Positions 8,740-52,948 of a stretch of DNA of 64,000 nt are shown here, one piece after another (within the stretch, counting starts at the first letter, position 1; the number at the start of each line of letters is the position of its first letter). A program made the translations under genes and the position numbers. The notes under the pieces are model-generated. The model saw only the letters and a list, made by a program, of their open reading frames with translations, was not told the DNA's origin and did not search any database. The DNA is from Gemmatimonas phototrophica. Lineage in GTDB: Bacteria > Gemmatimonadota > Gemmatimonadetes > Gemmatimonadales > Gemmatimonadaceae. The stretch is from assembly GCA_945869195.1 (NCBI GenBank), contig CAMBNV010000008.1:1367-65366 (forward strand), given 5' to 3'.

Positions 8740-8775
8740 CTCTTCTCTCGCCTCTCCCTGCGACTGCCTGCCCCT

Positions 8776-12137: not shown

Positions 12138-12154
12138 CGGGCGGGCGCTCTGGC

Positions 12155-12216: not shown

Positions 12217-12222
12217 AGAACG

Positions 12223-12894
12223 TCAGCCCGCGTACATCAGACCGCAGCCCACGCTCTGCGCATGACTCGTAGCGAAGATGCCAGAGGGCATCCGGACCAC
12301 GCCGGGAACGATGTGGTCGGTGATCAACTGCCGGGCATCCGCACGAGGGATGCTGCGCCGCGTCGCGATCTGCCCGGCGACGTTGTCGAGTGCGAGATCA
12401 CAGGCGAGTACGATCACGCCGCGGGCGATGAGGTTGTCCAGTGCGCCGTCGCGCCAGCCGAGCGCGAATTTCGCACCAGTCGGGACGTTGGCGAACGGAT
12501 TGCGCTTGGTGGGCTCACCCGAGACGGGGTCCTTGAGTGATTCTTTTTCGCCAAAGGCGCCATCGGCCCAGAGTGCATCGCCGAGCACCATTGGCACGGC
12601 TGCATGCCGGATGATCAGGACGGCCGAGAGTTCGGAGTCCTTGAGCCCATAGACCGTATTGTAGCCGGCGAGAAAGGAGCGGACCTGATGGAGCGCGATC
12701 CCGTCCCGCACTTCGGGTGCGTCAAAGGCCATCCGGTACTTCGCCGTCACTCGGCTCGCCCACGACATATCGTAGCTGCGCTGCGCTTGCGGTGCGGACT
12801 GCGCCTCGAGGAGGTCGGCTGCGAATGCGCCGGCCGCAGCCGAACCCGCGGCGATCAGCGAAGCCCGACGGAGAAATTCACGGCGCTGGGTCAT
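12223..12894 (-). CDS. Tat-exported hypothetical protein, possibly DsrE-like fold
   Basis: MTQRREFLRR Tat motif; VLIIRH..VPM and GVIVLACDLAL..GVVRMPSG pattern; fold call tentative. Confidence 0.6.
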   Translation of the reverse strand: MTQRREFLRRASLIAAGSAAAGAFAADLLEAQSAPQAQRSYDMSWASRVTAKYRMAFDAPEVRDGIALHQVRSFLAGYNTVYGLKDSELSAVLIIRHAAVPMVLGDALWADGAFGEKESLKDPVSGEPTKRNPFANVPTGAKFALGWRDGALDNLIARGVIVLACDLALDNVAGQIATRRSIPRADARQLITDHIVPGVVRMPSGIFATSHAQSVGCGLMYAG

Positions 12895-13444
12895 TCGGCG
12901 GGCTCGTGGATGGGGTGAGGGATGCGTCGAGGTGCGCGGCCTGATCGTCCTCGCGCCAGAGCAGCAACGCGAGCAGCATAGCCCCGGTGGTGACGCCGAT
13001 GTCTGCCACATTGAAGGTCCAGAAGCGCCAGCTCGTTGTGCCCATGTCGATAAAGTCGACGACGCCCTTCGTGTGGCGGAGTCGATCGACAAGGTTGCCA
13101 AAAGCGCCGCCCACAATGAGCGCCAGCGCCGCCGGGGTGGCACGTGAGAGGGGCGAGGCTTGACGATAGAGCTGAAACAGGTAGCCGATCATCCCCAGCG
13201 CGATCAGACTGAAGCCGATGCGCGACGCACTGCCGAGCGAGAGGTTCATCGCGGCGCCGGTATTGTACGTCAGCGTCCAGCGCAGCCAGGGCGCAACGAC
13301 CTCTTCTGGCAGGTGGAGCGTGAGCGCACGCTCGGCCCAGCGCTTCGTCAGGACGTCGACGATGGCCACGAGCAGCGCCAGCGACCAGAAGGTGCGGTCG
13401 CGCGGGCCAAACGCTGAGGGGTGCGGGGGCGTGGGATCGCTCAT
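12878..13444 (-). CDS. lspA: Lipoprotein signal peptidase II
   Basis: NTGAA, GGAFGNLVDR, VVDFI and FNVAD motifs; start moved to M85 of the track ORF. Confidence 0.93.
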   Translation of the reverse strand: MSDPTPPHPSAFGPRDRTFWSLALLVAIVDVLTKRWAERALTLHLPEEVVAPWLRWTLTYNTGAAMNLSLGSASRIGFSLIALGMIGYLFQLYRQASPLSRATPAALALIVGGAFGNLVDRLRHTKGVVDFIDMGTTSWRFWTFNVADIGVTTGAMLLALLLWREDDQAAHLDASLTPSTSPPNDPAP

Positions 13445-40752: not shown

Positions 40753-41946
40753 TCAGGGCCGACTCGGCCATGGCGTGCCCTGATCGCGCCGCGTCACGGC
40801 ACGGAGACCCTTGTACGCAAATCGCTGCACGCGTTTGCCTTCGTAGGTCTCGGTCGTGAAGATGTTGCCCTTGGAGTCCGTCGCGATCGAGTGGACCGCA
40901 AAGAACTGTCCTGGCTGACGTCCGCCGTCGCCGAACATCGTCAGAATCTCGAGGGACTGCCGGTCCAGCACATAGACCCGCTCGTTCTTGCCGTCGGCAA
41001 GGTAGAGGTACTTCTGCTGGGGGTCGCGCGAAAAAGCGATGTCCCAGACCGCCCCGTCGCCGCGGGTGAGCGGCGCGATCCGCACTTCCTTCACAAACTT
41101 CCCATCCCGCGTAAAGACCTGGATGCGGTTGTTGACACGGTCGCAGACGTAGATGAGACCGTCCGTCGACGGATCGGCACAGTGCACCGGGTTCCGGAAC
41201 TGCGGGATCAGGGGCTTCGCGGGATCGTACGGTCCGTAGTTGCTGTCAGATGGCACATTGCCGTAGGCGCCCCAGTACCGCTTGATCGCGCCGGTGGCCA
41301 TGTCGAGCACCGCGACGCGCTTGTTCCCGTAGCCGTCGGCGACATAGGCCTCGTTGTTGGCCGCGTCAAAACTCACTTTCGCGACGCGGCCGAACGAGTC
41401 CATGCTCCGCGAATCGCTCGGGCGCCCCGGCACTCCAATCTGCTGGAGAAACCGGCCCTCATGCGTGAACTTGAGAATATGGGAGTCGCCCGCGCTGACC
41501 GAATCCCGGGTCCCGTTGCCACCGATCCACACATTCCCGAGCGGGTCGATGGTGATGCCGTGATTCGACCCCGGCCAGGTGTAGCCCGGACCCGGTCCGC
41601 CCCACGAGTTCACAAGATTGCCTTCGGGGTCAAACTCAAGCACGGGCGGTGCCGAAGAGCAGCAGGGACCCGTCGCCGGGTAGCCGCCCTCGGTGCGCGC
41701 GTTGAGCGTCGCCTGGCCACGATGCACGATGAATACATGGTCGCGGGCGTCGACGCCGACGCCGATCACCATTCCGAGGAGCCACCCATTGGGCAGCGGC
41801 TTGGGCCAGAACGGGTCGACCTCGAAGGCCGGCGCCTGCACCGCCTGCCGTTCGAGCGAAGCCGAGAGCTCGCGCTCCCCCGCAATCAGAAAAACAATGG
41901 CGGCGCCCAGCACTGCGGCAGTAAACAGCGTACCCTTGCGTGACAT
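40753..41946 (-). CDS. Exported NHL-repeat protein, peptidyl-alpha-hydroxyglycine lyase (PAL)-like
   Basis: NHGITID, ADGYGNKRV, PVHCA, CDRVNNRIQVF, AVHSIATD. Confidence 0.75.
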   Translation of the reverse strand: MSRKGTLFTAAVLGAAIVFLIAGERELSASLERQAVQAPAFEVDPFWPKPLPNGWLLGMVIGVGVDARDHVFIVHRGQATLNARTEGGYPATGPCCSSAPPVLEFDPEGNLVNSWGGPGPGYTWPGSNHGITIDPLGNVWIGGNGTRDSVSAGDSHILKFTHEGRFLQQIGVPGRPSDSRSMDSFGRVAKVSFDAANNEAYVADGYGNKRVAVLDMATGAIKRYWGAYGNVPSDSNYGPYDPAKPLIPQFRNPVHCADPSTDGLIYVCDRVNNRIQVFTRDGKFVKEVRIAPLTRGDGAVWDIAFSRDPQQKYLYLADGKNERVYVLDRQSLEILTMFGDGGRQPGQFFAVHSIATDSKGNIFTTETYEGKRVQRFAYKGLRAVTRRDQGTPWPSRP

Positions 41947-42010
41947 GCTCGGCTCCGGCCTCGGGTGATGTTCAGGTGATCTCCTGCGACCAATGCTCTC
42001 TCTCCCATCC

Positions 42011-43384
42011 ATGACGCACCAGATACGTTCTTCCCTGACAATACGTTGTGCCGCGATTTTGAGGCGTATTGCCCTCGTCTCGCTGCCACTCCTTGGCACG
42101 CCCCGGGACGTCGCGGCGCACGAGATTCCCGCGCGCGTCGCCGTACTGGGATTCGTGCGTGCCGAGGGCACGCGTTTGGAGATTTTGCTCCGCGTCCCGC
42201 TCGTCGCGATGCGCGACGTGGACTTCCCGCTCCGGTCCGATGGATCGCTCGACCTGATCGCGGTCCGACCGCTCCTCGCGGCCGCGGCGCAGCTCTGGCT
42301 CGCTGACTATCTCGCGCTCGAAGCAAACGGACTCACGGTCGCCGCACCCCGCGTCGCAGCGGCCCGCGTGGCACTGCCCAGTGACCGCGGTTTTAGATCG
42401 CTCGCCGATGCGCGCGCGCAGTTCGAGCTGGCGCTGATCGGCGGCAGTACGACCATCGCGTGGCAGCAGGCGATGCTCGACGTGCGTCTCGAATACACGT
42501 TGCCTGCGCCGGACGCGCGGCTCGTGCTGCGTCCAAGGCTCGCGCACCTCGGCGTGCGGACCACAAGCGTGCTTCATCTGATCGGAGGCGACGGCGTCGA
42601 TCGACTCCTGACCTTCGAGGGCAACCCCGACGGGATCACGCTCGACCCCCGGTGGTACGACGCCGCGGGGCAGTTCACGGTCGATGGATTCCGCCACATC
42701 CTCGGCGGCATCGACCACCTGCTGTTCGTGCTCTGCCTTGTGTTGCCGGTGCGGCGCTGGCGCACCCTGGTCGCCATCGTGACGGCCTTCACGCTCGCCC
42801 ACTCTCTCACGCTTGGGTTCGCCGCACTCGGTCTCGCGCCGACCGCCGGTTGGTTCCCACCGCTCGTCGAGACGCTCATCGCGGCCTCGATCGTCTGGCT
42901 CACACTCGAGAACATCGTCCTGCCGGCGGACCGGCTCGAGCACCGCTGGCTAATGGCGTTCGGCTTTGGGCTCGCGCACGGGTTCGGTTTCTCGTTCGCG
43001 CTCGCCGAGCGGCTGCAGTTCGCCGGCAGCCATCTGCTCATGGCGCTCGCGTCGTTCAACATCGGCGTTGAACTCGGCCAGCTCCTCGTGCTCGCCCTCG
43101 CGCTCCCACTCCTCGGGTGGCTGCATCGTCGAGTGGGAGTCGAACGGGAACGCCTCCTGATCATCGTCGGCTCGGCGCTTGTCGCGCACACCGCCTGGCA
43201 CTGGATGACGGAGCGCTGGGCGACGCTCGCCGCGTATCGCGGCAGCCTCGGCGCACCGGTGATCGACGCAACGTGGGGCCTCGGGCTCATGCGGTTCGCC
43301 CTCCTCGCCGTGCTCGCGCTGGCCCTCGTGCTAGCCCTCGCGGTAGCGCGACGTCAGATTGCCAAGTCTGTTTCGCGACCCTGA
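42011..43384 (+). CDS. HupE/UreJ-family membrane protein with N-terminal exported domain
   Basis: AAHEIP mature N-terminus; HILGGIDHLLF, FTLAHSLTL, FGLAHGFGF, FNIGVELGQ. Confidence 0.85.
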   Translation: MTHQIRSSLTIRCAAILRRIALVSLPLLGTPRDVAAHEIPARVAVLGFVRAEGTRLEILLRVPLVAMRDVDFPLRSDGSLDLIAVRPLLAAAAQLWLADYLALEANGLTVAAPRVAAARVALPSDRGFRSLADARAQFELALIGGSTTIAWQQAMLDVRLEYTLPAPDARLVLRPRLAHLGVRTTSVLHLIGGDGVDRLLTFEGNPDGITLDPRWYDAAGQFTVDGFRHILGGIDHLLFVLCLVLPVRRWRTLVAIVTAFTLAHSLTLGFAALGLAPTAGWFPPLVETLIAASIVWLTLENIVLPADRLEHRWLMAFGFGLAHGFGFSFALAERLQFAGSHLLMALASFNIGVELGQLLVLALALPLLGWLHRRVGVERERLLIIVGSALVAHTAWHWMTERWATLAAYRGSLGAPVIDATWGLGLMRFALLAVLALALVLALAVARRQIAKSVSRP

Positions 43385-43404
43385 GCCCTTCTACCGCATC
43401 CCTC

Positions 43405-43815
43405 GTGCGACTCCGTCTCATCCTGCCCCTGCTCAGCATCGCCGCGCTCGCGGCGGCCCAGACTAGTCTCCGCTCCACCGCGGATGGGGTCTACACGACC
43501 GCGCAAGCCAACCAGGGACGCGAACTCTGGGCCTCGCTCTGCCAGAACTGCCATACCCCACACTCGGGTACCCCATTCAAAAACAGATGGATGGGGCGCG
43601 AACTCAGTGCGCTGTTCGCGTACACGCGCAACGAGATGCCCAAGTCCGACCCGAGCGGACTCTCCGATGAGGAGTACACGCTCGCGATCGCGTACCTGCT
43701 CCGTGTGAACGGGATGCCCGCCGGCGCGACCGCACTTCCCTCCGACTCGGCCGCTCTGCACCGCATTCGCTTCGATTCCGTTCGTTCTGTCCCCACCTCG
43801 ACCGGTCCCCGCTGA
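43405..43815 (+). CDS. Periplasmic monohaem cytochrome c
   Basis: Signal peptide, CQNCH, distal MP; GTG start inferred. Confidence 0.85.
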   Translation: MRLRLILPLLSIAALAAAQTSLRSTADGVYTTAQANQGRELWASLCQNCHTPHSGTPFKNRWMGRELSALFAYTRNEMPKSDPSGLSDEEYTLAIAYLLRVNGMPAGATALPSDSAALHRIRFDSVRSVPTSTGPR

Positions 43816-46028
43816 TGAATTTGCGACGCTTTGCTCACGCACCCCGGCTGGCGCTCCTGCTCGCGAGCGTTGCGTCGCTCGCGGGCGCGCAGCTACCCCG
43901 TCTGGCGAGCTCCCCCGGCGGCGCAGCGCCTGCCACAACAGGCTTGCAACGCGGCAACGCTTTTGGCGAGTGGCGCTACTGGGGCGGCGACGCCTACAGC
44001 ACACGCTACTCGCCGCTCGACCAGATCACCGCGAGCAACTTCAACTCGCTCGGGGTGGCCTGGCAGTGGGACGCCGGAACGTTTGGGCCGGACGAGTATT
44101 ATCGCACCACCCCACTCTATGCGAATGGCCGACTGTTCACGGTCGCGACGACGCGCCGCTCGGTGATGGCGATCGATCCGGAAACCGGTGAGACGCTCTG
44201 GATGTATCGGCTAGAAGAAGGGATTCGTTGGCAGAAAGCACCGCGGCAGTTCGCCGGGCGTGGACCCTCATACTGGACCGACGGTCGAGAGGAGCGCGTG
44301 ATCGTCGTGACGCCGGGATATCACCTGGTGTCGCTCGATGCGAAGACCGGCCTCCCCGATCCGAAGTTCGGCACGAACGGCGTGGTCGACCTCATGGGCG
44401 GGCTCGGGTACCCGCTCGTGCCGCTCGCGGTCGATGACACCGGGGCGTTGGTCGTCTCCGACGCCGCGCCGGCGCGGCGCGCCCGGACAGGCGAAGGGTG
44501 GAACGCCGTGACGCGGACCGGCGCCGACGGGACCATCGGCATCGATCCGGTGAATGGACAGATTGCGGCGAGCTCGCCGGCGGTGATTATCAACGACGTC
44601 GCGGTGGTCGGCAACTCCAGCATCCATGGGTACTATCCGATTCGCGTCCGCAACATCCCCGGTTTCATCCGCGGCTTTGATGTGCGCACCGGCAAGCAGC
44701 TCTGGAAGTTCAATCTCGTCCCCCAGCCCGGTGAGTTCGGCGCCGAGACGTGGAAGAACGGCTCGAAGATCGGCACCGAAGGCGTCGGCAAAAACGACGC
44801 CTGGGCGACCTACTCCGGTGACCCGGAGCTGAACATGGTCTATATCCCGGTCGGCATGCCGCTGATGGACGAATACGGCGGCCATCGGCCAGGCGACAAC
44901 CTCTACGGCAACTCGCTCGTGGCGCTCGACGCGCGCACGGGCCTGCGCAAATGGCACTTCCAGATGGTGCATCACGACATCTGGGACTATGACACGCCGA
45001 TGGCACCGAACCTGATGGATGTCACGGTGAACGGACAGCGCCGCCGTGCGATCACGCAGAGCACAAAGCAGGGGTGGCTCTACACCTTCGACCGCGTCAC
45101 CGGCGAGCCAATCTGGCCAATTGTCGAGACCCCGGTGCTCCAGAGCGACCTGCCGCGCGAACAGACCTCACCTACGCAGCCGATTCCGTCCCGTCCCGCT
45201 CCGTACTCGCAGCAGGGCCTGCTCGAGAGCGACGTCATCGATTACACGCCGGCGATCCGCGACTCGGCGCTGGCGATGGCGCGCAAGTGCCGCATGGGGC
45301 CGTACTACATCCCCGCCGTGCTCTCGAATGGCACGAGTGCGACCGGCACCCGCTGCACCTGGTACGCACCGGGCGCGTCGGGCGGAGTGAACATTGACGG
45401 AGGCGCGGCCTTCGACCCTGAGACCGGCATGCTCTACGTCGCATCGCTCAGTGGCCTCTCCACGATCTCGCTGCAGAAGGACCCGTGCAGCGAGTTCGAC
45501 TATAGCTCGCCGCGCGACAACTGCGGACTATTGGGCGCGCTCACGCCTCCGGCAGGCTATACCCCGCCGGAAAGCCGCGGCGGTGGCTTTGAAGGACGGG
45601 GCAACGCCTCAAACTTGCACGGCGTGTCGATCCTCAAGCCGAAAGAGTTCGGTGGCATCACCGCGTATGACATGAACAGCGGTGACAAGCGCTGGTGGAT
45701 CCCGAACGGCGGCTGGGTGCCGGTGCGCAGCACCGACCCGCTCTTCGCCGGCGTCACCCTCCCGCCGCGACCGGCGGGCGGCCAGGCACAGGTCATCAAC
45801 ACCAAGACACTCGTGATCTATGGCACCGGCCGTTCGGGCGGCGTCCCGGGGGCGAAACCGATCCTCTACGCCGTCGATAAGGCCACCGGTGCCCAGGTCG
45901 GCGCCGTCGAGATTCCGGCGCGCACGACCGCGGTACCGATGACGTTCTTGCACAAGGGAAAGCAGTACATCGTGTTCGCAACAGGTGCGGGGACAACGAC
46001 GGCGTTGGTGGCGCTCCGACTGCCGTGA
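43815..46028 (+). CDS. Exported PQQ-dependent dehydrogenase (glucose/quinate DH-like, no membrane anchor)
   Basis: TRYSPLDQI, TPL, GFIRGFDVRTG, WHFQMVHHDIWDYD, KQGWLYTFDRVTGEP, GKQYIV; TGATG overlap with cytochrome c. Confidence 0.88.
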   Translation: MNLRRFAHAPRLALLLASVASLAGAQLPRLASSPGGAAPATTGLQRGNAFGEWRYWGGDAYSTRYSPLDQITASNFNSLGVAWQWDAGTFGPDEYYRTTPLYANGRLFTVATTRRSVMAIDPETGETLWMYRLEEGIRWQKAPRQFAGRGPSYWTDGREERVIVVTPGYHLVSLDAKTGLPDPKFGTNGVVDLMGGLGYPLVPLAVDDTGALVVSDAAPARRARTGEGWNAVTRTGADGTIGIDPVNGQIAASSPAVIINDVAVVGNSSIHGYYPIRVRNIPGFIRGFDVRTGKQLWKFNLVPQPGEFGAETWKNGSKIGTEGVGKNDAWATYSGDPELNMVYIPVGMPLMDEYGGHRPGDNLYGNSLVALDARTGLRKWHFQMVHHDIWDYDTPMAPNLMDVTVNGQRRRAITQSTKQGWLYTFDRVTGEPIWPIVETPVLQSDLPREQTSPTQPIPSRPAPYSQQGLLESDVIDYTPAIRDSALAMARKCRMGPYYIPAVLSNGTSATGTRCTWYAPGASGGVNIDGGAAFDPETGMLYVASLSGLSTISLQKDPCSEFDYSSPRDNCGLLGALTPPAGYTPPESRGGGFEGRGNASNLHGVSILKPKEFGGITAYDMNSGDKRWWIPNGGWVPVRSTDPLFAGVTLPPRPAGGQAQVINTKTLVIYGTGRSGGVPGAKPILYAVDKATGAQVGAVEIPARTTAVPMTFLHKGKQYIVFATGAGTTTALVALRLP

Positions 46029-46128: not shown

Positions 46129-47868
46129 CTACTGAATGAACTTCCAGGCCGCCCGATAATCCCGCGTCAGCGGCGTCCCCATTAACCGCGCCCGCACCAT
46201 CTCGATCGGCATCCGCCCGCCCTGCAGGATCGCATCGTGAAACTCCTTGTTCGTCATGCGCCCGCCACCGACCAACTCACGGTGAAGCGCGCGGATCTGC
46301 AGCCCGCCGAGCATGTACGCTGCCTGATAGAGCGGTGAGTACGACCCGTTGAACGACCGCCGCACTTCGGCTTCGGCATTCGCGCGCTCATGGCCCACGC
46401 GATCCACCAGCAGGTCGATCGCCTCCTGCGGCGTCATCCGACCCAGGTGCACGTTGAGCGAGAAGATGATCCGCGCCAGACGGTGCGACCGCCAGAAGAG
46501 CATCCCCATCCGGTCTTCCGGCGTGCGCGGAAAGCCCTGATCCCAGAGCAGCATCTCCCACCAGAGTGACCACCCCTCGCCCCAGAACGGCGTACTGAAA
46601 GCACCCCGGTGCGTGTTGTAACGCGAGGTCATGAAGCCCTGTAGATGATGTCCTGGGATCAGCTCGTGGTGCACCGTCGCCATTGAGAAATGTGGATTAT
46701 TGCCGCGCATCGACATCATCTTGTCGGCGTCGGCCATCGAATCGGTCGGGTACGACACCTGGATGATCTCGCCCCCGAGGAAGAACGGGGAGACGAGCTG
46801 TTGCCGCGGCGTCATCATCTCCATGCGCCAGATTTCGTCCGAGAGTGGCGGCACCGTGACGAGATCGCGCTGCGTGATGAACTGCACCGCCTCACGGGAG
46901 AGTCGCCGAATCAGGTCGGGCTGTTCGCCCGGCGGAACGAAGGCCTGCTTCACCTTCTCCAGCGCGGCACGCCAGTCCTCACCGAAGCCCATCTCTCGTG
47001 CGGCCTTCTTGCGCTCCTGATCAATCCACACGAACTCGCGCTCGGCGAGCGCGATCAGCTCGTCTGGTGTGTAGTCGATCATCTCCGCTTCCAAATCCTC
47101 CCTGAGTCCCTCGGCGCCGATCGGATCACCCACAATCGGCTCCTCCTGGCCCTCGCGCTGACCGACGATGGCCTCGCGCAACGCCTTGGCGTACCGGGTG
47201 ATCGCCTCGTTGGCGCGGCGGCTTGGGTCTGCGGTCCACCAGGAGAACTCTGGATCGTAGCCGGCGTAGAATCGATTCCAGTTGCGCATCGTGCCCTGCA
47301 GGTCTTCGAGATACCCGATCGTGCGCAACGCCACGATCCGCTCGGCGCGCGTTGCACCGTTTGCCGGTTTGGCGCGCGCCCCCTTCGCGAGACTGTCGGC
47401 CTGCACCGCCAGCGCAGCGAGCGCCTTCGCTGCTTTCGGGGCGTCGACCTTCTCGAACCGACGGCGCACCTCCTCCAGATCGGTGATCACCGCTGCGAAT
47501 GGCACCAGCGGCGCCATCTCACGCCCGAGCGTCTCCTCGCGACCGAGCTGGGCGACCTCGTAGCGCAGCTTGTTGCCGAGGAGCAGGTAGTCGATTCGCC
47601 CCTCCTGGCTCAGTTTGTTGAAGTCGACCTTCGCCAGGCGCGCCTGCCAATCCGAGTAAAATGTACGGAAGCGCGCCCGACGGGCCGGCGAGTACTCAAC
47701 CGTCCACCGGCGCCCGAGCGCAGCGCGGTCGGAGGTGAAGAGCGCGACGGAGTCGCGGAGCTCGCTCGCGCCCACGGAGATCTGGCCGATCCGACGTTGC
47801 GCGGGGAGCGCCCCGGCGACGAGTAGCAGCAGGAGCGCGGTCGGGACGAGCCGCGGAAGTGAGCGCAT
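46129..47868 (-). CDS. DUF885 family exported protein (probable metallopeptidase)
   Basis: HHELIPGHHLQ, EGWSLWWE, PLYQAAYMLG; signal peptide. Confidence 0.85.
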   Translation of the reverse strand: MRSLPRLVPTALLLLLVAGALPAQRRIGQISVGASELRDSVALFTSDRAALGRRWTVEYSPARRARFRTFYSDWQARLAKVDFNKLSQEGRIDYLLLGNKLRYEVAQLGREETLGREMAPLVPFAAVITDLEEVRRRFEKVDAPKAAKALAALAVQADSLAKGARAKPANGATRAERIVALRTIGYLEDLQGTMRNWNRFYAGYDPEFSWWTADPSRRANEAITRYAKALREAIVGQREGQEEPIVGDPIGAEGLREDLEAEMIDYTPDELIALAEREFVWIDQERKKAAREMGFGEDWRAALEKVKQAFVPPGEQPDLIRRLSREAVQFITQRDLVTVPPLSDEIWRMEMMTPRQQLVSPFFLGGEIIQVSYPTDSMADADKMMSMRGNNPHFSMATVHHELIPGHHLQGFMTSRYNTHRGAFSTPFWGEGWSLWWEMLLWDQGFPRTPEDRMGMLFWRSHRLARIIFSLNVHLGRMTPQEAIDLLVDRVGHERANAEAEVRRSFNGSYSPLYQAAYMLGGLQIRALHRELVGGGRMTNKEFHDAILQGGRMPIEMVRARLMGTPLTRDYRAAWKFIQ

Positions 47869-47943
47869 GGTGTGCCTCAGGATAGACGGAGACGAGGGCG
47901 AATCAACCGGAGCCGGCAGGCCCAGTGGCCCGCCCACAAAACA

Positions 47944-49029
47944 TTAGGGCTTCACGTAGCGCTTAAGCGCGCGCGGTCCTACTTCTGCGCCGTAGACCAC
48001 ACCGCGGGCATCGGCCGCCACACCCTCCGCCGCACTCGTGTTGCGCGTGGTCGTGACCGGATCGGGAATGAACGCCGTGACCACGCCGGTCCGTGCACTG
48101 CCGATCCGGATGCCACGCTGCCACTCGGGACGCCGCGGCTCGATCGACCCCGACTCCGAATCGGCGACGTAGATCACGTCGTTCGCGTCGATGAAGATTC
48201 CACTCGGGCGCGAGAACTGGTACCAGGTGTCGAGGAGCGTGCCGCTGGCCGAGAAGATCTGGATCCGGTCATTCCCGCGGTCCCCAACGAAGAGTCGGCC
48301 CTGCGAATCCATGGCGAGAGCGTGGGGCTGATCGAACTCGCCCGGCCCCGTGCCTTTCTTGCCCCAGCTCGAGAGGAGCGTGCCGGTGCGATCGAAGCGC
48401 AGGAGGCGCGCATTCGCGTCCGCCCCTGACGCATGCCCTTCGGCCACGTAGATGTCGCCAGTCGGCGCGACGTACACGGCATTGGGCTGGAAGAAGAACC
48501 CGGGCTCGCGCGCACTACCGTCGGTGCCCAGGCGCATGAGGAGCTCGCCCCGCGGCGAAAACTTGAGCACCTGATGCCCGAAGATTCGCGCGGGCGGCAC
48601 TGACGCCGGCGCATCGGCAGCGGCCGTCCGCGGTGCGACCGCGCGATTGTCGCGGCCATCGACGACCCAGACGTTGCCCTCACGGTCTACGTGGATGGCA
48701 TGCGGCCAGTTCACCATCCCCTTGCCGAACGAGCGCACGAGCGCGCCGTCTTTGTCGAACAGCAGGATCGGATCGAGATCGGAGCCTACGCAACTATTCT
48801 GCCCGCAACGCTCACCCACCCAGACGCTCAGGCCGTCCTGGTCGATCGCCACGGAGCTCGTCGAGCCCCATGCTCGGCCGGCCGGCAGTTTCGCCCACCC
48901 TTCAATGGTGCGATATGGGTTGGGGCGATCGTTTACCGGACTTGGCGCCGGCGCCTGGGCGCCGAGCGCGCCGAGTGTTCCCGCCAGGATCGCCACGGTC
49001 GCGGCGCTGTAGATCAGTCGAGTGCTCAT
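47944..49029 (-). CDS. Exported NHL-repeat protein, PAL-like variant
   Basis: WPHAIHVD, FFQPNAV..AEGH, FDQPHAL..GDRGNDRIQIF; TGATG coupling to the upstream oxidase. Confidence 0.8.
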   Translation of the reverse strand: MSTRLIYSAATVAILAGTLGALGAQAPAPSPVNDRPNPYRTIEGWAKLPAGRAWGSTSSVAIDQDGLSVWVGERCGQNSCVGSDLDPILLFDKDGALVRSFGKGMVNWPHAIHVDREGNVWVVDGRDNRAVAPRTAAADAPASVPPARIFGHQVLKFSPRGELLMRLGTDGSAREPGFFFQPNAVYVAPTGDIYVAEGHASGADANARLLRFDRTGTLLSSWGKKGTGPGEFDQPHALAMDSQGRLFVGDRGNDRIQIFSASGTLLDTWYQFSRPSGIFIDANDVIYVADSESGSIEPRRPEWQRGIRIGSARTGVVTAFIPDPVTTTRNTSAAEGVAADARGVVYGAEVGPRALKRYVKP

Positions 49030-50486
49030 CAGTCGTCATCTCCACCAAATGGTGATTCGCCAGTCACGTATTCCTGCGTCGGTAACCGAAAGGCCGCGGC
49101 GAGGGCCGGATCACCGCCGTCACCCATCACGCGCCAGGCCGCGTACTCGCCGATCACGATCGAGAACTTGAATCCCTCGGCCTGCCCCATGCCGGTGATC
49201 CAGGCGTTCTCGGCTCCCGGTACGCGATCGACGATGAAGTTGCGATTGACGCTGATCTCATAGTGACACGAACGGGTCGAGAGCAGCGGTGCCGCGGCCA
49301 TCGCGGGGAAATACTTGGCCAGGACGTTCCGCGAGCCGTCGATCCGCTCCTGACTCGTCCACCGCGAACTGGTGTCTGGATCCTGCTGACGCGCATCGGG
49401 CGGCGTATTGGGCGGCGGCGGGGGCGGTGCGGCGGCAGCGGCTCCCGGCGGTGGTGGCGGCGCGATCGCGCCGCGCACGCGAAATCCATGACTGTCCGCC
49501 GGCAGCGCCGCCCAACCCGTCACCCCCGGCACATTCCAGGTCGGACAGTTCGGATGCGTGAATCGACTGTCGTCGACGGGCGTACCGAAGTAGCAGACGT
49601 GACCGATCGGCAGATTGGTGCGGTTGCGCATCACGTCGGGGAATACTTTCCCGAGCCAGGGACCGCAGGCGAAGACGTACGAGTCGGCGGTGAGCTTCGT
49701 GCCGTCCTGCAGCGTGACACCTTGCATGCGACCATTCGCAATCGACCCCGGCGTCACGCGACCTAGGCGAAACTCGACGCCCGCTTCGCGCGCGAGCGCG
49801 ACCTGCGCCTGCACCGAGTCGCGCGAGCGCGCGACGCCGGCGTCAGGTTCGAACAGGAGTACCTCATGCCCCTCGGACCGAATCTGCGGGAACCGTCGCT
49901 GCGCGTCGTCGGGCGTGAGCACCTCGTACTTGACACCCAGTGTGTCCCAGAGCTCGCGCGAACGGGTGGTGAACGCCTGCGGCTTCTCACGGAGGATCAG
50001 GTCGCCGGTCTCGTAGAAAAAGCGGGTCCCAAAGCGCTTGCCGTGCTCGGCGTCGAACTCGCGCCAGCGCTTGATGCTCTCGCGCGCCCAGCCCACCCAC
50101 AGCTCGGGCGTGTTGGCGCGGTCGCCGTATGAGGAGCGGATGCCGCGGGTCTCGTCACCGGTGGTCGCACGCGAGTTCGCGGCGCCATACTGGTCGATGA
50201 GCGTGACGCGATTCCCCTGCTTGCGCAGGTGCCAGGAGATGAACGCGCCCCAGGCACCGGCTCCCACGACAATCACGTGGCTCGAGGGGCGCGCACGTCC
50301 AGGCTGGGCACTGGATGGGGCGGCGCGAGCGGCATCAACGGTCGTGGGTGCGACGCTCGTGGGTGCGACGGTCGCCGGCGCGACGCCGGTGAGTAGCGCG
50401 CCCGTGCTCAATCCCGCGAGCCGGAGAAAGTCGCGGCGGGGCAGTTCGTTGACTGCGGAGTGGTTGTCGTCGGCGGTGTCGGACAT
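49029..50486 (-). CDS. Tat-exported FAD-dependent oxidoreductase, sarcosine oxidase/MTOX/FAOX family
   Basis: RRDFL Tat signal; GAGAWG, GDETRGIRSSYG, SCHY (Cys at covalent-FAD position), GFKFS. Confidence 0.82.
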   Translation of the reverse strand: MSDTADDNHSAVNELPRRDFLRLAGLSTGALLTGVAPATVAPTSVAPTTVDAARAAPSSAQPGRARPSSHVIVVGAGAWGAFISWHLRKQGNRVTLIDQYGAANSRATTGDETRGIRSSYGDRANTPELWVGWARESIKRWREFDAEHGKRFGTRFFYETGDLILREKPQAFTTRSRELWDTLGVKYEVLTPDDAQRRFPQIRSEGHEVLLFEPDAGVARSRDSVQAQVALAREAGVEFRLGRVTPGSIANGRMQGVTLQDGTKLTADSYVFACGPWLGKVFPDVMRNRTNLPIGHVCYFGTPVDDSRFTHPNCPTWNVPGVTGWAALPADSHGFRVRGAIAPPPPPGAAAAAPPPPPPNTPPDARQQDPDTSSRWTSQERIDGSRNVLAKYFPAMAAAPLLSTRSCHYEISVNRNFIVDRVPGAENAWITGMGQAEGFKFSIVIGEYAAWRVMGDGGDPALAAAFRLPTQEYVTGESPFGGDDD

Positions 50487-50661
50487 GGCAGGGAAGAGGG
50501 GGCGATTGGAGATATGCGAAGATGCCGCGCTCGCGGCGGTGCCGCAATCGGCGCGGGCGCGGCGGGCGCGGCGACGCGCGCACCGCGTCGCCGACTCGAC
50601 TACCGTCAACCAACGTGCGGTGTCTTGCACGCGTTGAACCACCTCGCCAGCTTCCCTCTCG

Positions 50662-51099
50662 ATGCCAACACCCTTTATCCCGCGCTTGCGCCTCGCTGCA
50701 CTCGTCGCGTTCGTATTTGGCCTGGCCGCCGCGCGCGCCCAGCCCGCGGGCGCCCAGGACCACGCCCTGCCCTCTGCGGCCGCCAAGCAGGTTGAGCTCG
50801 GCGAGCAGTGGTTCCGCGCCGCCTGCGCCGAGTGTCACGCCATCGGCGGCCTCTCCAACGCCGACTTCCGTCTAAAATGGAGCGGCCGATCCGCGTTCGA
50901 ACTCATCGAGTCAATCCGATCGACGATGCCCGAATCCGCCCCAGGCTCGCTCACGCAGGGGACCTATATCGCCGTCGTCGCCTACCTCATGCGGACGAAC
51001 GGCATGCCCGTCGGCACGACCGCGCTCCCCGCTGACAGCGCGGGTCTCGCGACCGTCAGGCTCAGTTTCACTCCCGCTTCCTCCACCCTTCGACGCTGA
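50662..51099 (+). CDS. Periplasmic monohaem cytochrome c (paralogue of 43405-43815)
   Basis: Signal peptide, CAECH, TMP, YLMRTNGMP.G..ALP.DSA. Confidence 0.88.
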   Translation: MPTPFIPRLRLAALVAFVFGLAAARAQPAGAQDHALPSAAAKQVELGEQWFRAACAECHAIGGLSNADFRLKWSGRSAFELIESIRSTMPESAPGSLTQGTYIAVVAYLMRTNGMPVGTTALPADSAGLATVRLSFTPASSTLRR

Positions 51100-51106
51100 C
51101 CGACCT

Positions 51107-51550
51107 ATGCGCAACGCACAGAGCTTGTACCGCACCGCAGCGCTCCTCGCGCTCGCGCTCGTTCCCGCACTGGCCCAGGCCCAAGCGCGCGAGGCACTTG
51201 GCCGCTCGACCGCGACGCTGACGCAGGCGATCCGCGTCGGCAACATGGTCTACGCCTCGGGCGCACTCCCGGCGGGTGGCGCCAACGCCGACACGACCAT
51301 TCAGGGCCAGACGCGCAGCGCGCTCGCCAGCATCAAGAGCACACTGGAGCTGGCGGGCACGACCATGGAGCACGCGGTCAAGTGCACCGTCTTCCTTCTC
51401 GAGGGCAGCGACTTTCGCGGTATGAACGAGGCCTACGCTGAGTCCTGGCCGGTGTCGCCACCGGCGCGGTCCACCGTGATCGTCAAAGGACTCGTGGTCC
51501 CCAACGCGAAGCTCGAGATCGAATGCATTGCGGTGATGCCGGTGAAGTAA
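51107..51550 (+). CDS. Rid (RidA/YjgF/UK114) family protein with signal peptide
   Basis: AIRVGNMVYASG, VKCTVFL, MNEAY, PARSTV (catalytic Arg), LEIECIA; N-terminal LLALALVPALAQA. Confidence 0.85.
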   Translation: MRNAQSLYRTAALLALALVPALAQAQAREALGRSTATLTQAIRVGNMVYASGALPAGGANADTTIQGQTRSALASIKSTLELAGTTMEHAVKCTVFLLEGSDFRGMNEAYAESWPVSPPARSTVIVKGLVVPNAKLEIECIAVMPVK

Positions 51551-51596: not shown

Positions 51597-52595
51597 TCAG
51601 CCGAGCGCGATCCGCAGGTCCCGCTCGCTGAGGTTTCCGCCACAGATCACAATCCCCACACGCAAGCCCGCCAGTTCAGGCGCGAGCGTGCGTAGCCCTG
51701 CGAGACCGGCCGCCCCGGCCCCCTCCGGCAGATTGTGTGTGATCCGGATCAGATCGCGGACCGCGGCATACATCTCCACGTCGGTCACCGTGACGAAGCC
51801 CGAGAGCCCCGCGCGCAACGCATCAAAGGTGAGATCGTAGGCCGAACCGGTCGCGATCCCCTCGGCGAACGTCGCGATCGGCTGGCGCTCGAGCTTCTCC
51901 CCGCGCTTCCAGCTCTCGTACTGCGCGGCCGCACCCGTCGCGCCCACCGCATAAATCCGCAACGACGGCCTCCGCGCGGCGGCGACCGCAAGCGCCCCCA
52001 CCGACTGCGAGCCGCCGCCGAGCGCGATCACCAGCACGTCGAGCTCCGGCTCCTGCTGCACGATCTCGAGCGTCATCGTCGCCGCGCCGGCAATGACCAG
52101 TGGGTCATTGGTCGAGTGCGCGAGCACGAGCCCGCGCTCGGCCCCAATCCGCGCGCACTCACGCACGGTCACATCGTAGGTCTCACCGACCTCAATGAGT
52201 TCGGCGCCGAGCGCGCGGATGGCGGCATTCTTCCCGGGGTTGTTCCCGATCGGAACGCAGATGCTGACGGGCGTGCCCGTCAGCCGGCCGCCATACGCGA
52301 TGCCCTGCCCGTGATTGCCCGTGCTCGCGCCAATCAGGCCCCGTCCGCGCTGCTCCAGTGTGCGCCCAAGGATCGCGTTAAGCCCGTTGCGGATCTTGAA
52401 GCTCTGCGTGGGATGATGGTTCTCGTGCTTCACGTGCACGCGAATGCCGTGCCCAACCAGCGCGTCGAGCTCGTCGTAGTGCCGCAGCGGCGTCGTGGCG
52501 AGGTGGGGCCGGAGCCGCGACTCGGCGGCGAGGACATCACTGAAGGTGATCGGCAGCGCACCGCTGGTGAGCGCTTCGGTGGCCCCGGGGCTCAT
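51597..52595 (-). CDS. PLP-dependent threonine/serine dehydratase-family enzyme (fold type II)
   Basis: SFKIRNG (PLP lysine), ASTGNHGQG, LGGGS, CGGN; ATGA coupling with csoR. Confidence 0.85.
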   Translation of the reverse strand: MSPGATEALTSGALPITFSDVLAAESRLRPHLATTPLRHYDELDALVGHGIRVHVKHENHHPTQSFKIRNGLNAILGRTLEQRGRGLIGASTGNHGQGIAYGGRLTGTPVSICVPIGNNPGKNAAIRALGAELIEVGETYDVTVRECARIGAERGLVLAHSTNDPLVIAGAATMTLEIVQQEPELDVLVIALGGGSQSVGALAVAAARRPSLRIYAVGATGAAAQYESWKRGEKLERQPIATFAEGIATGSAYDLTFDALRAGLSGFVTVTDVEMYAAVRDLIRITHNLPEGAGAAGLAGLRTLAPELAGLRVGIVICGGNLSERDLRIALG

Positions 52596-52948
52596 CGGCC
52601 GTGCCGGTACATGAGATCGACGAGCTCGTCGTACATCGCTTCGGCTTCGACCGGGCCCGATCGGATCGCTCCGGCGGCACAGTGCTTGAGGTGATTGCGC
52701 ATGAGCTCTCGACTCACACTCCGCAGCGCCTCCTGCACCGACGAGATCTGCGTCATCACGTCGGCGCAATAGCGGTCCTCCTCAACCATCTTCTGCAGCC
52801 CGCGCGCCTGGCCCTCGATGCGGCGCAAGCGTTTGAGGTTTCGGTCCTTGATGTCGGCGTCCACCGCCAGGGCCTTGCGACCCGAAACGTCCCCGTGCGC
52901 ACCGCACCCACAGGCCGCCGCCAGCTGAGTTGTCGGCGCGCTCGCCAT
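52592..52948 (-). CDS. csoR: Copper-sensing repressor, CsoR family
   Basis: RLRRIEGQARGL, YCADV..Q, NHLKHC (Cys/His/Cys ligands). Confidence 0.92.
   Translation of the reverse strand: MASAPTTQLAAACGCGAHGDVSGRKALAVDADIKDRNLKRLRRIEGQARGLQKMVEEDRYCADVMTQISSVQEALRSVSRELMRNHLKHCAAGAIRSGPVEAEAMYDELVDLMYRHGR

What the first reader, a model, noticed from the sequence alone, without database searches (positions are those of the whole stretch)
47944..51550. Periplasmic flavo-oxidase + PAL-like lyase + cytochrome c + exported Rid: possible uncharacterised extracytoplasmic C-N cleavage system
Seen: a Tat-exported MSOX-family flavoprotein is translationally coupled (TGATG) to an exported PAL-like NHL propeller. 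Divergent from them are a cytochrome c and a Rid protein with a signal peptide and the catalytic Arg. Known: MSOX-family enzymes oxidise amine C-N bonds to imines, Rid proteins hydrolyse imines, and PAL cleaves carbinolamides to amide plus glyoxylate. Inference: the oxidase makes an imine or carbinolamine from an N-substituted amino acid or C-terminal Gly, the NHL or Rid enzyme resolves it, and electrons go to cytochrome c. That would be a copper-monooxygenase-independent route in the periplasm. Fructosyl-amino-acid deglycation is an alternative.
Basis: partly seen in the sequence, partly recalled or inferred. Interest (0 to 1): 0.72.

Follow-up and report, generated by a model that had tools for sequence, protein, structure and literature searches.

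The report
Periplasmic amine dehydrogenase with cytochrome partner
A Gemmatimonadaceae bacterium exports a sarcosine-oxidase-like flavoenzyme that most likely passes its electrons to the neighbouring cytochrome c rather than to oxygen, helped by an exported imine-hydrolysing Rid protein. This is a new enzyme-family version of an arrangement already described, and the proposed PAL-like lyase step is possible but unproven.

Summary
All four genes are real, at the stated coordinates, and predicted to be exported. The oxidase has a Tat signal. NHL1, the cytochrome c and Rid have Sec signals. The oxidase stop overlaps the NHL1 start (TGATG).

The firmest link is flavoprotein to cytochrome c. A homologous mono-haem cytochrome c lies within 900 bp upstream of the oxidase in 64 of 76 related loci. 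Three metagenomic relatives fuse the two into one Tat-exported polypeptide. Rid is nearby in 40 of 66 loci.

This matches two published arrangements, with an MSOX/DAO-family flavoprotein in place of an MAO-type one:
- the lao-cccA-ridA operon;
- the rule that a Tat signal plus an adjacent cytochrome c predicts a dehydrogenase (NicA2/CycN).

The NHL protein is a true PAL homologue by fold. It has His in place of the catalytic Tyr and Glu in place of one Zn-binding His. A second NHL paralogue 6 kb away keeps the full PAL set.

NHL1 lies within 6 kb of a PQQ dehydrogenase island in 37 of 50 genomes, but within 6 kb of the oxidase in only 16 of 46. All belong to one co-inherited periplasmic module.

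The substrate is unknown. I rate this a new variant of a known kind, of moderate interest.

The parts
49029..50486 (-). Tat-exported MSOX-family flavoprotein ('OX'), 485 aa. Residue numbers in this report refer to the 480-aa query 49029-50471; add 5 for the full protein.
   Evidence: Pfam DAO E 2.6e-40. The NMTO and soxA_mon NCBIfam hits fall below their cut-offs. The RRDFLRLAG motif is invariant in the family. Equivalents of MSOX T48, R49, R52, C315, Y317 and K348 are kept. The AF2 model has pLDDT 85, and its best fold hits are MSOX at TMt 0.82-0.87.
47944..49029 (-). Sec-exported six-bladed NHL propeller ('NHL1'), a diverged PAL homologue. Its start overlaps the OX stop (TGATG).
   Evidence: The AF2 model has pLDDT 89, and the top Foldseek PDB hit is PAL 3FVZ (E 2e-16, TMt 0.74). 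Equivalents of PAL R533, H585, H690 and R706 are kept as R74, H110, H236 and R251. Y654 is replaced by H199 and H786 by E335.
46129..47937 (-). DUF885 protein with a signal peptide, 6 nt downstream of NHL1. It is probably the third gene of the OX operon in this clade only.
   Evidence: Pfam DUF885 E 2.1e-56. It is present downstream of NHL1 in about 13 loci.
50487..50661 (.). 175-bp divergent intergenic region between the OX operon and the cytochrome c-Rid operon. It is the presumed shared promoter region.
   Evidence: Sequence read. The divergent arrangement is conserved in 61 of 76 loci. Promoters were not mapped.
50662..51099 (+). Sec-exported mono-haem cytochrome c ('cyt c1', CAECH), the proposed electron acceptor of OX.
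   Evidence: Pfam PF13442. A homologue lies within 900 bp upstream of OX in 64 of 76 loci. It is 39% identical to the C-terminal cytochrome domain of the natural OX-cytochrome fusions P0214, P0221 and P0236.
51107..51550 (+). Sec-exported Rid-family imine deaminase, 7 nt after cyt c1.
   Evidence: Pfam PF01042 E 2e-24. The PARS arginine aligns with RidA. The signal peptide is conserved in 34 orthologues. It lies within 2 kb upstream of OX in 40 of 66 loci. It is read as one ORF with the cytochrome c in L046, L051 and L060.
43815..46028 (+). Exported PQQ-dependent dehydrogenase. It belongs to the wider co-inherited module and is convergent with the OX operon.
   Evidence: Pfam PQQ E 2.2e-153. 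It is present in 51 of 121 family genomes, nearly the same set as OX, NHL1 and NHL2. It lies within 6 kb of NHL1 in 37 of 50 genomes.
43393..43815 (+). Second mono-haem cytochrome c ('cyt c2', CQNCH), a paralogue of cyt c1. Its stop overlaps the PQQ-DH start. Its own start is uncertain.
   Evidence: Pfam PF13442 E 4.8e-10.
41993..43384 (+). HupE/UreJ_2 membrane protein with an extra N-terminal exported domain. It is the first gene of the PQQ-DH operon.
   Evidence: Pfam PF13795 E 9.7e-42, covering residues 230-379 only. It corresponds to cluster 6 in the related loci.
40753..41946 (-). Second NHL propeller ('NHL2'), about 27% identical to NHL1. It keeps all six PAL active-site positions.
   Evidence: It aligns to PAL 3FVZ over the full length. 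hhalign against NHL1 gives probability 99.9%. It is present in 51 of 121 family genomes.

Best explanation
The core of the finding is a periplasmic, respiratory amine (amino-acid-type) dehydrogenase module.

**Proposed mechanism**
1. The flavoprotein is folded with FAD, probably bound covalently through the Cys that aligns with MSOX Cys315. It is exported by Tat.
2. In the periplasm it oxidises the C-N bond of a carboxylate-bearing secondary or primary amine to an imine.
3. The reduced flavin is re-oxidised by the dedicated Sec-exported mono-haem cytochrome c encoded divergently next to it, not by O2. That cytochrome feeds the aerobic respiratory chain.
4. The exported Rid protein, co-transcribed with the cytochrome, accelerates hydrolysis of the released imine in the periplasm.

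**Relation to known systems**
This is the MSOX/DAO-family counterpart of the lao-cccA-ridA operon and of the NicA2/CycN type of Tat-flavoprotein plus cytochrome c dehydrogenases.

**NHL1**
- It is co-transcribed with the oxidase here. It is a metal-dependent PAL homologue with an altered active site (likely His/His/Glu plus a fourth His, and two retained Arg).
- It belongs to a larger co-inherited periplasmic module: PQQ dehydrogenase, a second paralogous cytochrome c, a HupE/UreJ-like membrane protein and a second NHL propeller that keeps the full PAL set.
- It may process an oxidised carboxylate-bearing product, but its reaction is not known.

**Shown versus inferred**
- Shown: gene structure, family assignments, conserved residues, linkage statistics and the existence of fusions.
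- Inferred: the export route, covalent flavin, cytochrome c as acceptor, the role of Rid and everything about the substrate.
For: **Flavoprotein-cytochrome c link**
- A homologous cytochrome c lies within 900 bp upstream of OX in 64 of 76 loci: 61 divergent, 3 co-directional.
- Three relatives (P0214, P0221, P0236) are single Tat-signal polypeptides with the OX domain followed by a cytochrome c domain. That domain is 39% identical to cyt c1, E 2e-22.
- One of these fusions is followed by a further cytochrome c gene.
- In the FAO family, a Tat signal plus an adjacent Sec cytochrome c was shown experimentally to predict cytochrome-c-using dehydrogenases. Fused forms were noted there too (PMC12224317).

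**Flavoprotein active site**
- The family's only invariant Lys residues are K275 and K435. None lies in the strand homologous to the MSOX Lys265 oxygen-activation site, which reads GFRVRG.
- The role of Lys265 is taken from PMC5459902.
- The carboxylate-binding R52 and K348, and the flavinylation residues R49 and C315, are conserved.

**Rid**
- The catalytic Arg is kept and the signal peptide is conserved.
- It is linked to OX in 40 of 66 loci.
- Rid proteins hydrolyse imines made by FAD amine oxidases and cluster with them (PMC4433059).
- A Tat-LAAO, cytochrome c and RidA operon has been described (PMC5053998).

**Wider module**
- OX, NHL1, NHL2 and PQQ-DH occur in 47, 52, 51 and 51 of 121 family genomes. 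The union is 53 genomes.
Against: - There is no biochemical or expression data.
- Signal peptides were judged by motif only.
- Twelve of 76 loci lack the adjacent cytochrome. Eleven of those keep Rid, and several have only the PQQ-linked cyt c2 nearby.
- The alignment around MSOX Lys265 is ambiguous. HMMER does not align that segment, and MAFFT and my by-eye registers differ by two residues. 'No Lys' is robust, but which residue replaces it is not.
- An Arg at that site could still support some O2 reactivity.
- The near-identical phyletic patterns may partly reflect one clade of the family rather than functional dependence.
- Rid is absent from the Gemmatimonas-type loci, so it is dispensable.
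Confidence: 0.6

Rival explanations
1. The oxidase converts an N-substituted glycine, N-acyl-Gly or C-terminal Gly into an imine or carbinolamide. NHL1 then acts as a PAL-type lyase that releases glyoxylate plus an amine or amide. Together they would form a PHM-independent periplasmic C-N cleavage or amidation-like route.
For: - OX and NHL1 are translationally coupled here.
- NHL1 lies immediately downstream of OX in 30 of 68 loci. In 4 more it lies behind cyt c1.
- They co-occur in 46 of 47 OX genomes.
- PAL is the best fold match.
- Both PAL arginines and two Zn histidines are kept. This fits a carboxylate-bearing substrate held at a metal.
- The PHM-like gene does not track the module.
- The island repeats the same logic twice: dehydrogenase plus cytochrome c plus NHL propeller.
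Against: - The Tyr of the PAL catalytic dyad is His, and one Zn His is Glu (dyad from PMC10303134).
- NHL1 is within 6 kb of PQQ-DH in 37 of 50 genomes, but within 6 kb of OX in only 16 of 46.
- In the 121 family genomes, 27 of the 47 that carry OX, among them the single-contig genome G045 (the SusC-adjacent, 'Gemmatimonas-type' layout), have no NHL1 within 6 kb of it, or have it on another contig.
- Three to six genomes have NHL1 without OX.
- Carbinolamines of ordinary amines collapse spontaneously, so a lyase is needed only for amides. MSOX-type flavoenzymes are not known to oxidise amides (my own knowledge).
Confidence: 0.13
2. NHL1 works with the PQQ dehydrogenase branch, for example as a hydrolase or lyase for the quinoprotein's product. 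Its co-transcription with the oxidase in this clade would then be a by-product of island synteny, and the oxidase-cytochrome-Rid triad would be functionally self-contained.
For: - NHL1 and PQQ-DH share a contig in 40 of 50 genomes. They are within 300 bp in 12 and within 6 kb in 37.
- The NHL1, PQQ-DH and NHL2 trio persists where OX is elsewhere or absent.
- The OX-cytochrome pairs and fusions occur without any NHL gene.
Against: - NHL1 and PQQ-DH are usually convergent (tail to tail), not co-transcribed.
- Where NHL1 is in an operon, it is with OX or with cyt c1 (34 loci).
- No lactonase-type propeller appears among the top 50 fold hits.
- The Pfam SGL hit is below its cut-off (20.1 against 26.3 bits).
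Confidence: 0.2
3. The flavoprotein is a genuine periplasmic oxidase that reduces O2 to H2O2. The neighbouring cytochrome c would then be unrelated or would serve another enzyme.
For: - All characterised close structural relatives (MSOX, NMTO, amadoriases) are oxidases.
- Some Tat-exported FAOs without a cytochrome are real oxidases (PMC12224317).
- Twelve of 76 loci lack the adjacent cytochrome.
Against: - The cytochrome is adjacent in 84% of loci.
- Covalent fusions exist in three relatives.
- The O2-activating Lys is lost.
- No catalase or peroxidase gene lies in the locus.
Confidence: 0.07

Closest known systems
lao-cccA-ridA operon of Gluconacetobacter diazotrophicus PAL5 (GDI2456-2454; Rodrigues et al. 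2016, PMC5053998)
   Same: A Tat-signal flavin amino-acid oxidase-type enzyme, a small cytochrome c and a RidA protein are encoded together. The published hypothesis is the same: the cytochrome assists the redox step and RidA hydrolyses the imine.
   Different: - The flavoprotein there is an LAAO/MAO-type enzyme, whereas this one is MSOX/DAO-family (PF01266).
- That cluster is one co-directional operon, whereas this one is two divergent operons.
- That cluster has no NHL propeller and no PQQ island.
- Neither system has been tested biochemically for electron transfer.
NicA2/Pnao-CycN and other cytochrome-c-using dehydrogenases of the flavoprotein amine oxidoreductase superfamily (PMC9396064, PMC12224317)
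   Same: A Tat-exported flavoprotein sits beside a Sec-exported cytochrome c. Natural flavoprotein-cytochrome fusions occur in some relatives. The flavin is re-oxidised by cytochrome c rather than by O2 (shown in those systems, inferred here).
   Different: The flavoprotein fold family differs (PF01593 MAO-like against PF01266 DAO/MSOX-like). The substrates there are nicotine-type amines. No Rid or NHL partner was reported there.
Monomeric sarcosine oxidase / N-methyltryptophan oxidase (MSOX family; PDB 1EL5, 7EXS, 2UZZ)
   Same: The fold matches (TMt 0.82-0.87). The FAD-binding motif is present. Equivalents of Thr48, Arg49, Arg52, Cys315 (covalent FAD), Tyr317 and Lys348 are conserved.
   Different: - This protein has a Tat signal and is exported.
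- About 23% identity.
- It scores below all NCBIfam equivalog cut-offs.
- No Lys sits at the Lys265 oxygen site.
- It carries a proline-rich insert of about 25 residues after the GFRVRG strand.
- It has a cytochrome c partner.
[quoted passage not shown]
   Same: Six-bladed NHL propeller, and the best fold hit. Equivalents of Arg533, His585, His690 and Arg706 are kept in NHL1. The paralogue NHL2 keeps all six positions.
   Different: In NHL1, Tyr654 becomes His and His786 becomes Glu. There is no fused or co-varying PHM. NHL1 is bacterial and periplasmic, and it is linked to dehydrogenases rather than to a copper monooxygenase.

Membership tests
MSOX / NMTO subfamily of DAO-family flavoproteins | DAO fold with an N-terminal GxGxxG FAD-binding motif | tested here: met
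   Pfam PF01266 E 2.6e-40. The VVGAGAWG motif is invariant. The model's top fold hits are MSOX.
MSOX / NMTO subfamily of DAO-family flavoproteins | Covalent 8-alpha-S-cysteinyl FAD site (Cys315) together with Arg49 | tested here: met
   C402 aligns with MSOX C315 and R109 with R49. Both are invariant in 53 sequences. Actual flavinylation was not tested.
MSOX / NMTO subfamily of DAO-family flavoproteins | Substrate-carboxylate ligands Arg52 and Lys348 | tested here: met
   R112 and K435 align with them and are invariant.
MSOX / NMTO subfamily of DAO-family flavoproteins | Oxygen-activating Lys265 (and His269) | tested here: not met
   The family has no conserved Lys in the homologous strand, which reads GFRVRG at residues 329-334. 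The register is ambiguous: G329 or R331 could be the equivalent. HMMER leaves the segment unaligned.
MSOX / NMTO subfamily of DAO-family flavoproteins | Score above the curated equivalog cut-offs (NMTO NF008425; soxA_mon TIGR01377) | tested here: not met
   151.8 against 257 bits for NMTO, and 98.3 against 479.65 bits for soxA_mon. This is a distinct, unnamed subfamily.
Tat-flavoprotein plus cytochrome c amine dehydrogenases (NicA2/CycN type; lao-cccA-ridA type) | Twin-arginine signal on the flavoprotein | tested here: met
   RRDFL(R/K) is invariant, including in relatives at only 42-47% identity. This rests on the motif only.
Tat-flavoprotein plus cytochrome c amine dehydrogenases (NicA2/CycN type; lao-cccA-ridA type) | Adjacent Sec-exported cytochrome c, conserved across relatives, with fusions in some | tested here: met
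   Present in 64 of 76 loci. The fusions are P0214, P0221 and P0236.
Tat-flavoprotein plus cytochrome c amine dehydrogenases (NicA2/CycN type; lao-cccA-ridA type) | Flavoprotein belongs to the MAO-like FAO superfamily (PF01593) | tested here: not met
   Only PF01266 and generic Rossmann families are hit. No LAAO or MAO structures appear among the sequence hits.
Tat-flavoprotein plus cytochrome c amine dehydrogenases (NicA2/CycN type; lao-cccA-ridA type) | Slow reaction with O2 and fast reaction with the cognate cytochrome c | not testable with these tools
   This needs stopped-flow kinetics.
[quoted passage not shown] | Six-bladed NHL beta-propeller fold | tested here: met
   Model pLDDT 89. 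3FVZ is the rank-1 Foldseek hit at E 2e-16. Generic TRIM-NHL domains score nearly as well.
[quoted passage not shown] | Catalytic dyad Tyr654 and Arg706 | tested here: not met
   The Arg is kept as R251. The Tyr is replaced by the invariant His199. The dyad is as stated in PMC10303134.
[quoted passage not shown] | Zn ligands His585, His690 and His786. The ligand identities are recalled from the 3FVZ paper, which was not held. | tested here: not met
   H110 and H236 are kept. The third position is the invariant Glu335. The PAL numbering was checked against the 3FVZ chain through R533, H585 and Y654.
[quoted passage not shown] | Partnership with a PHM-type copper monooxygenase | tested here: not met
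   PF01082 gave no hit, and the controls were silent as well. A borderline PF03712 protein lies on another contig. It is present in only 9 of 121 family genomes, 3 of which lack the module.
Rid family, Arg-containing imine deaminases (RidA, Rid1-3) | YjgF/Rid fold plus the catalytic arginine | tested here: met
   PF01042 E 2e-24. PARS aligns with the PARS of RidA structures. PAR(S/T) is present in the orthologues.
Rid family, Arg-containing imine deaminases (RidA, Rid1-3) | Membership of the archetypal RidA subfamily (TIGR00004 cut-off) | tested here: not met
   73.7 against 106.25 bits. The subfamily was not assigned further.

The most novel reading that the evidence does not exclude
The whole co-inherited island would be a periplasmic, PHM-independent oxidative C-N cleavage system built twice from the same three parts.
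- Each set has a dehydrogenase (flavin-dependent or PQQ-dependent), its own paralogous cytochrome c and a PAL-homologous NHL propeller.
- The dehydrogenases would create imine, carbinolamine or carbinolamide adducts next to a carboxylate.
- The propellers would then cleave these adducts to glyoxylate plus an amine or amide.

Bacterial PAL homologues would then be the partners of respiratory dehydrogenases rather than of copper monooxygenases.
Probability: 0.12. Interest if true: 0.8.

Novelty: new variant of a known kind. Interest (0 to 1): 0.52.

Why it matters
If confirmed, three points follow.
- The rule 'Tat signal plus adjacent cytochrome c means dehydrogenase, not oxidase' would extend from MAO-like flavoproteins to the sarcosine-oxidase (DAO/MSOX) family. 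Members of that family are routinely annotated as oxidases. MSOX-family enzymes are also used in biosensors, where O2-independent variants are wanted.
- It would add a second, independent case of imine control by an exported Rid protein outside the cytoplasm.
- It points to an undescribed Gemmatimonadaceae periplasmic module in which two PAL homologues sit beside two cytochrome-c-linked dehydrogenases. That module gives a concrete place to ask what bacterial PAL-like propellers do.

The substrate and the physiological role are unknown. Possibilities include scavenging N-substituted amino acids or peptide breakdown products taken up through TonB-dependent receptors.

Tried and rejected
1. **NHL1 as a lactonase for the PQQ-DH product.** The Pfam SGL hit is below its cut-off. 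No SMP30, Drp35 or PON propeller appears among the top 50 fold hits. Not supported, but not excluded.
2. **A PHM-like partner in trans.**
   - PF01082 found nothing.
   - PF03712 found a borderline exported lipoprotein on contig 4 with HH...H...HxH...M motifs.
   - It occurs in only 9 of 121 family genomes and does not co-vary with the module. Rejected as an obligate partner.
3. **Proteus-type L-amino-acid deaminase.** No such structure appears among the PDB sequence hits.
4. **Fructosyl-amine oxidase reading.** Amadoriases and FPOX match clearly less well than MSOX (profile E 1e-18 against 1e-34). Nothing in the context is sugar-specific. Not excluded.
5. **The nearby CsoR-family repressor as a formaldehyde sensor (FrmR).** By eye it has the Cu-type C-H-C fingerprint. 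Its best NCBIfam hit is RicR. This gives no support for a formaldehyde link.
6. **Getting the PAL alignment for NHL1 directly from PDB searches.**
   - This failed because generic TRIM-NHL repeats outrank PAL.
   - One search was a wasted search.
   - I solved it indirectly through the N-terminal half of NHL2, the coordinates and hhalign.
7. **Fixing the MSOX Lys265 equivalent by alignment.** The result was ambiguous.
8. **Literature searches.** Searches for a Tat-exported MSOX-family enzyme with a cytochrome c partner, and for bacterial PAL homologues, found nothing relevant.
9. **The PAL structure paper and the Lys265 paper.** Neither was held.

Full report
**1. What is in the sequence**

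The window comes from a 2.33-Mb, 98%-complete Gemmatimonadaceae genome.

| Gene | Coordinates | Key evidence |
|---|---|---|
| NHL1 | 47944-49029 (-), 361 aa | Pfam NHL |
| Flavoprotein (OX) | ORF to 50786; real start almost certainly ATG at 50486, 485 aa | M-S-D-T-A-D-D...RRDFLRLAG; same length as database protein P0001; Pfam DAO E 2.6e-40 |
| Cytochrome c (cyt c1) | 50662-51099 (+) | Single CAECH motif |
| Rid | 51107-51550 (+) | Pfam Ribonuc_L-PSP |

- The OX stop overlaps the NHL1 start by one base (TGATG).
- Cyt c1 and Rid are 7 nt apart.
- A DUF885 gene (46129-47937) starts 6 nt after NHL1.
- The unit is therefore two divergent operons, OX-NHL1-DUF885 and cyt c1-Rid, separated by 175 bp.

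Export signals were judged by motif only.
- The twin-arginine motif is invariant in 53 family members.
- All 34 Rid orthologues have a leader ending A-x-A/Q.
- All cytochromes have a leader before their single CxxCH.

**2. The flavoprotein**

- By sequence and by predicted fold it sits in the MSOX/NMTO corner of the DAO family. The best PDB sequence hits are sarcosine oxidases (profile E 8e-34).
- The AF2 model has pLDDT 85, with the first 60 residues disordered as expected for a leader. It matches MSOX structures at TMt 0.82-0.87.
- It scores below every NCBIfam equivalog cut-off, so it is an unnamed subfamily.
- Using the MSOX chain numbering recovered from the alignments, these residues are conserved and invariant in the family:
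  - Thr48, Arg49 and Arg52;
  - Cys315, the covalent FAD site;
  - Tyr317;
  - Lys348.
- These point to a covalently flavinylated enzyme acting on an amine that carries a carboxylate.
- The segment holding MSOX Lys265 is not aligned by HMMER. Lys265 is the oxygen-activation residue and is conserved in MSOX, FPOX and amadoriases (PMC5459902).
- In the model that segment is a beta-strand reading G-F-R-V-R-G, followed by a proline-rich loop.
- MAFFT and my by-eye register differ by two residues. In either register there is no Lys, and the family's only invariant lysines lie elsewhere.

**3. Linkage in related loci**

A scan of one genome per species returned 80 loci, all from Gemmatimonadaceae or Gemmatimonadales. 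I located window homologues in them by tblastn and by clustering GC3-filtered ORFs.

| Partner and position relative to OX | Loci |
|---|---|
| Homologous cytochrome c within 900 bp upstream | 64 of 76 (61 divergent, 3 co-directional) |
| Rid within 2 kb upstream | 40 of 66 |
| NHL1 immediately downstream | 30 of 68 |
| NHL1 behind cyt c1 instead | 4 further loci |

- Eleven of the 12 loci without the cytochrome have Rid directly beside OX.
- In Gemmatimonas-type loci only OX and cyt c1 stay together. They sit next to a SusC-like TonB receptor, a borderline exported HpcH/HpaI-like protein and a tricorn protease.
- In L046, L051 and L060 the cytochrome c and Rid are read as one ORF without a stop.

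**4. Fusions**

- I searched with a distant orthologue (L082, 45% identity). This found three clusters, P0214, P0221 and P0236 (550-552 aa), whose precomputed Pfam domains are DAO plus Cytochrome_CBB3.
- Their sequences show a Tat motif, then the OX-family signatures (SGDETRGVRSSYGD, GFRVR, ACHYE, AEGFKF), then a C-terminal CSACH cytochrome domain.
- That domain is 39% identical to window cyt c1 over 93 residues, E 2e-22.
- On its contig one fusion is followed by a further cytochrome c gene.
- This is the same signature that led to the experimental demonstration that many Tat-exported MAO-like amine 'oxidases' are cytochrome-c-using dehydrogenases. An adjacent cytochrome c was the best predictor there, and fused forms were also seen (PMC12224317).
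- I therefore consider electron transfer from this flavoprotein to cyt c1 the best-supported part of the story.

**5. Rid**

- The PARS arginine aligns with the catalytic Arg of RidA structures.
- Rid genes are known to cluster with FAD amine oxidases, and RidA and Rid2 hydrolyse the imines those enzymes make (PMC4433059).
There a Tat-signal LAAO, a cytochrome c and RidA are co-expressed (PMC5053998).
- That paper also cites a periplasmic LAAO with a Rid subunit in Chlamydomonas.
- The flavoprotein-cytochrome-Rid triad and an extracytoplasmic Rid are therefore already described in kind. What is new here is the flavoprotein family.

**6. The NHL protein**

- By sequence, generic TRIM-NHL repeats outrank PAL.
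- By predicted fold (pLDDT 89), PAL 3FVZ is the top hit, narrowly.
- A second NHL gene in the window, NHL2 (40753-41946), aligns to PAL over its full length.
- From the alignment of its N-terminal half I recovered PAL residues 511-677 and checked the numbering on Arg533, His585 and Tyr654.
- hhalign of the NHL1 and NHL2 families gives probability 99.9%. Together with the direct coordinates, this gives the equivalences below.

| PAL residue | NHL2 | NHL1 |
|---|---|---|
| Arg533 | kept | R74 |
| His585 | kept | H110 |
| Tyr654 | kept | His199 (replaced, invariant) |
| His690 | kept | H236 |
| Arg706 | kept | R251 |
| His786 | kept | Glu335 (replaced, invariant) |

- Tyr654 and Arg706 form the catalytic dyad (PMC10303134). 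The Zn-ligand identities are from my memory of the 3FVZ paper, which was not held.
- NHL1 is thus a PAL homologue with a remodelled, still metal-site-like centre. It should not be filed as a PAL.

**7. Which partner does NHL1 follow?**

I searched 121 family genomes at least 80% complete and parsed the results.

| Gene | Genomes with it (of 121) |
|---|---|
| OX | 47 |
| NHL1 | 52 |
| NHL2 | 51 |
| PQQ-DH (43815-46028) | 51 |
| Any of the four | 53 |

- The four genes, and by synteny the second cytochrome c and the HupE/UreJ-like gene between NHL2 and PQQ-DH, form one co-inherited periplasmic module.
- NHL1 lies within 6 kb of PQQ-DH in 37 of 50 genomes, usually tail to tail. It lies within 6 kb of OX in only 16 of 46.
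- Six genomes have NHL1 without a clear OX orthologue. Only one shows the reverse.
- Where NHL1 is in an operon, however, it is with OX or with cyt c1.
- My reading: NHL1 belongs to the module, and its coupling to OX is real in this clade but not obligatory. The idea that it resolves the OX product stays a hypothesis.
- The near-identical phyletic patterns could reflect a single clade. I could not test that on a tree.

**8. Copper monooxygenase**

- PF01082 found nothing.
- PF03712 found a borderline exported lipoprotein on another contig with PHM-like HH...H...HxH...M motifs.
- It is present in only 9 of 121 family genomes, three of which lack the module.
- Whatever the NHL proteins do, it does not depend on that protein.

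**9. Verdict**

- The best explanation is a periplasmic MSOX-family amine or amino-acid dehydrogenase that respires through its own cytochrome c, with an exported Rid to clear the imine (confidence about 0.6).
- It is a new variant of a published kind of system.
It is weakened by the loss of the catalytic Tyr and by the linkage data (about 0.13).
- An NHL1 role in the PQQ branch is at least as likely (about 0.2).
- The substrate is unknown.
- The twice-repeated trio of dehydrogenase, cytochrome c and PAL-homologous propeller is the most intriguing feature and deserves experimental follow-up.

Noticed in passing
window 40753-41946 (-): A second NHL propeller (NHL2) aligns to rat PAL over its full length. 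It keeps the equivalents of Arg533, His585, Tyr654, His690, Arg706 and His786. It is present in 51 of 121 family genomes, often with a tandem partial paralogue.
   Followed up: partly
P0214, P0221, P0236; L087:3858-5510: These are natural single-polypeptide fusions of the Tat-exported OX-family flavoprotein with a C-terminal mono-haem cytochrome c domain. They lack the proline-rich insert. In L087 the fusion is followed by a 266-aa cytochrome c gene.
   Followed up: partly
L046:7882-8895 (-), L060:8382-9785 (-), L051:1-961 (-): Cytochrome c and Rid are read as one continuous ORF with no stop between them. The Rid part still carries its signal-peptide-like segment. This is either a real fusion or a lost stop codon.
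   Followed up: no
G000 contig 4, 177328-178650 (-) = L086:5329-6651 (-): An exported lipoprotein of 441 aa has PHM/DBH-like copper-site motifs (NSHHF, VHY, SHTHRLG, GEMN) and an N-terminal CX4CH. Its Pfam Cu2_monoox_C score is 22-27 bits, around the cut-off. It is found in only 9 of 121 family genomes.
   Followed up: partly
window 41993-43815 (+): The HupE/UreJ_2 membrane protein has an extra N-terminal exported domain of about 190 aa. It is followed by a second cytochrome c (CQNCH) whose stop overlaps the PQQ dehydrogenase start. Cyt c2 is a paralogue of cyt c1.
   Followed up: partly
window 51597-52948 (-): A CsoR-family repressor is Cu-type by its C-H-C fingerprint (read by eye), and its best NCBIfam hit is RicR. 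Its stop overlaps the probable start of a cytoplasmic threonine-dehydratase-like PLP enzyme. This pairing is conserved in about 13 related loci.
   Followed up: no
L057, L067, L071 and similar loci, around 5600-13300: In Gemmatimonas-type genomes the OX-cytochrome c pair sits beside several other genes: a SusC-like TonB-dependent receptor, a putative SusD-like protein, an exported borderline HpcH/HpaI aldolase-like protein, a metallo-beta-lactamase-fold protein, a PepSY-TM protein and a tricorn protease.
   Followed up: partly
window 49029-50486, residues about 335-360 of the flavoprotein: A proline-rich insert (APPPPPGAAAAAPPPPPPNTPP) follows the GFRVRG strand. Its length varies across the family and it is absent from the cytochrome fusions. 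Its function is unknown.
   Followed up: no
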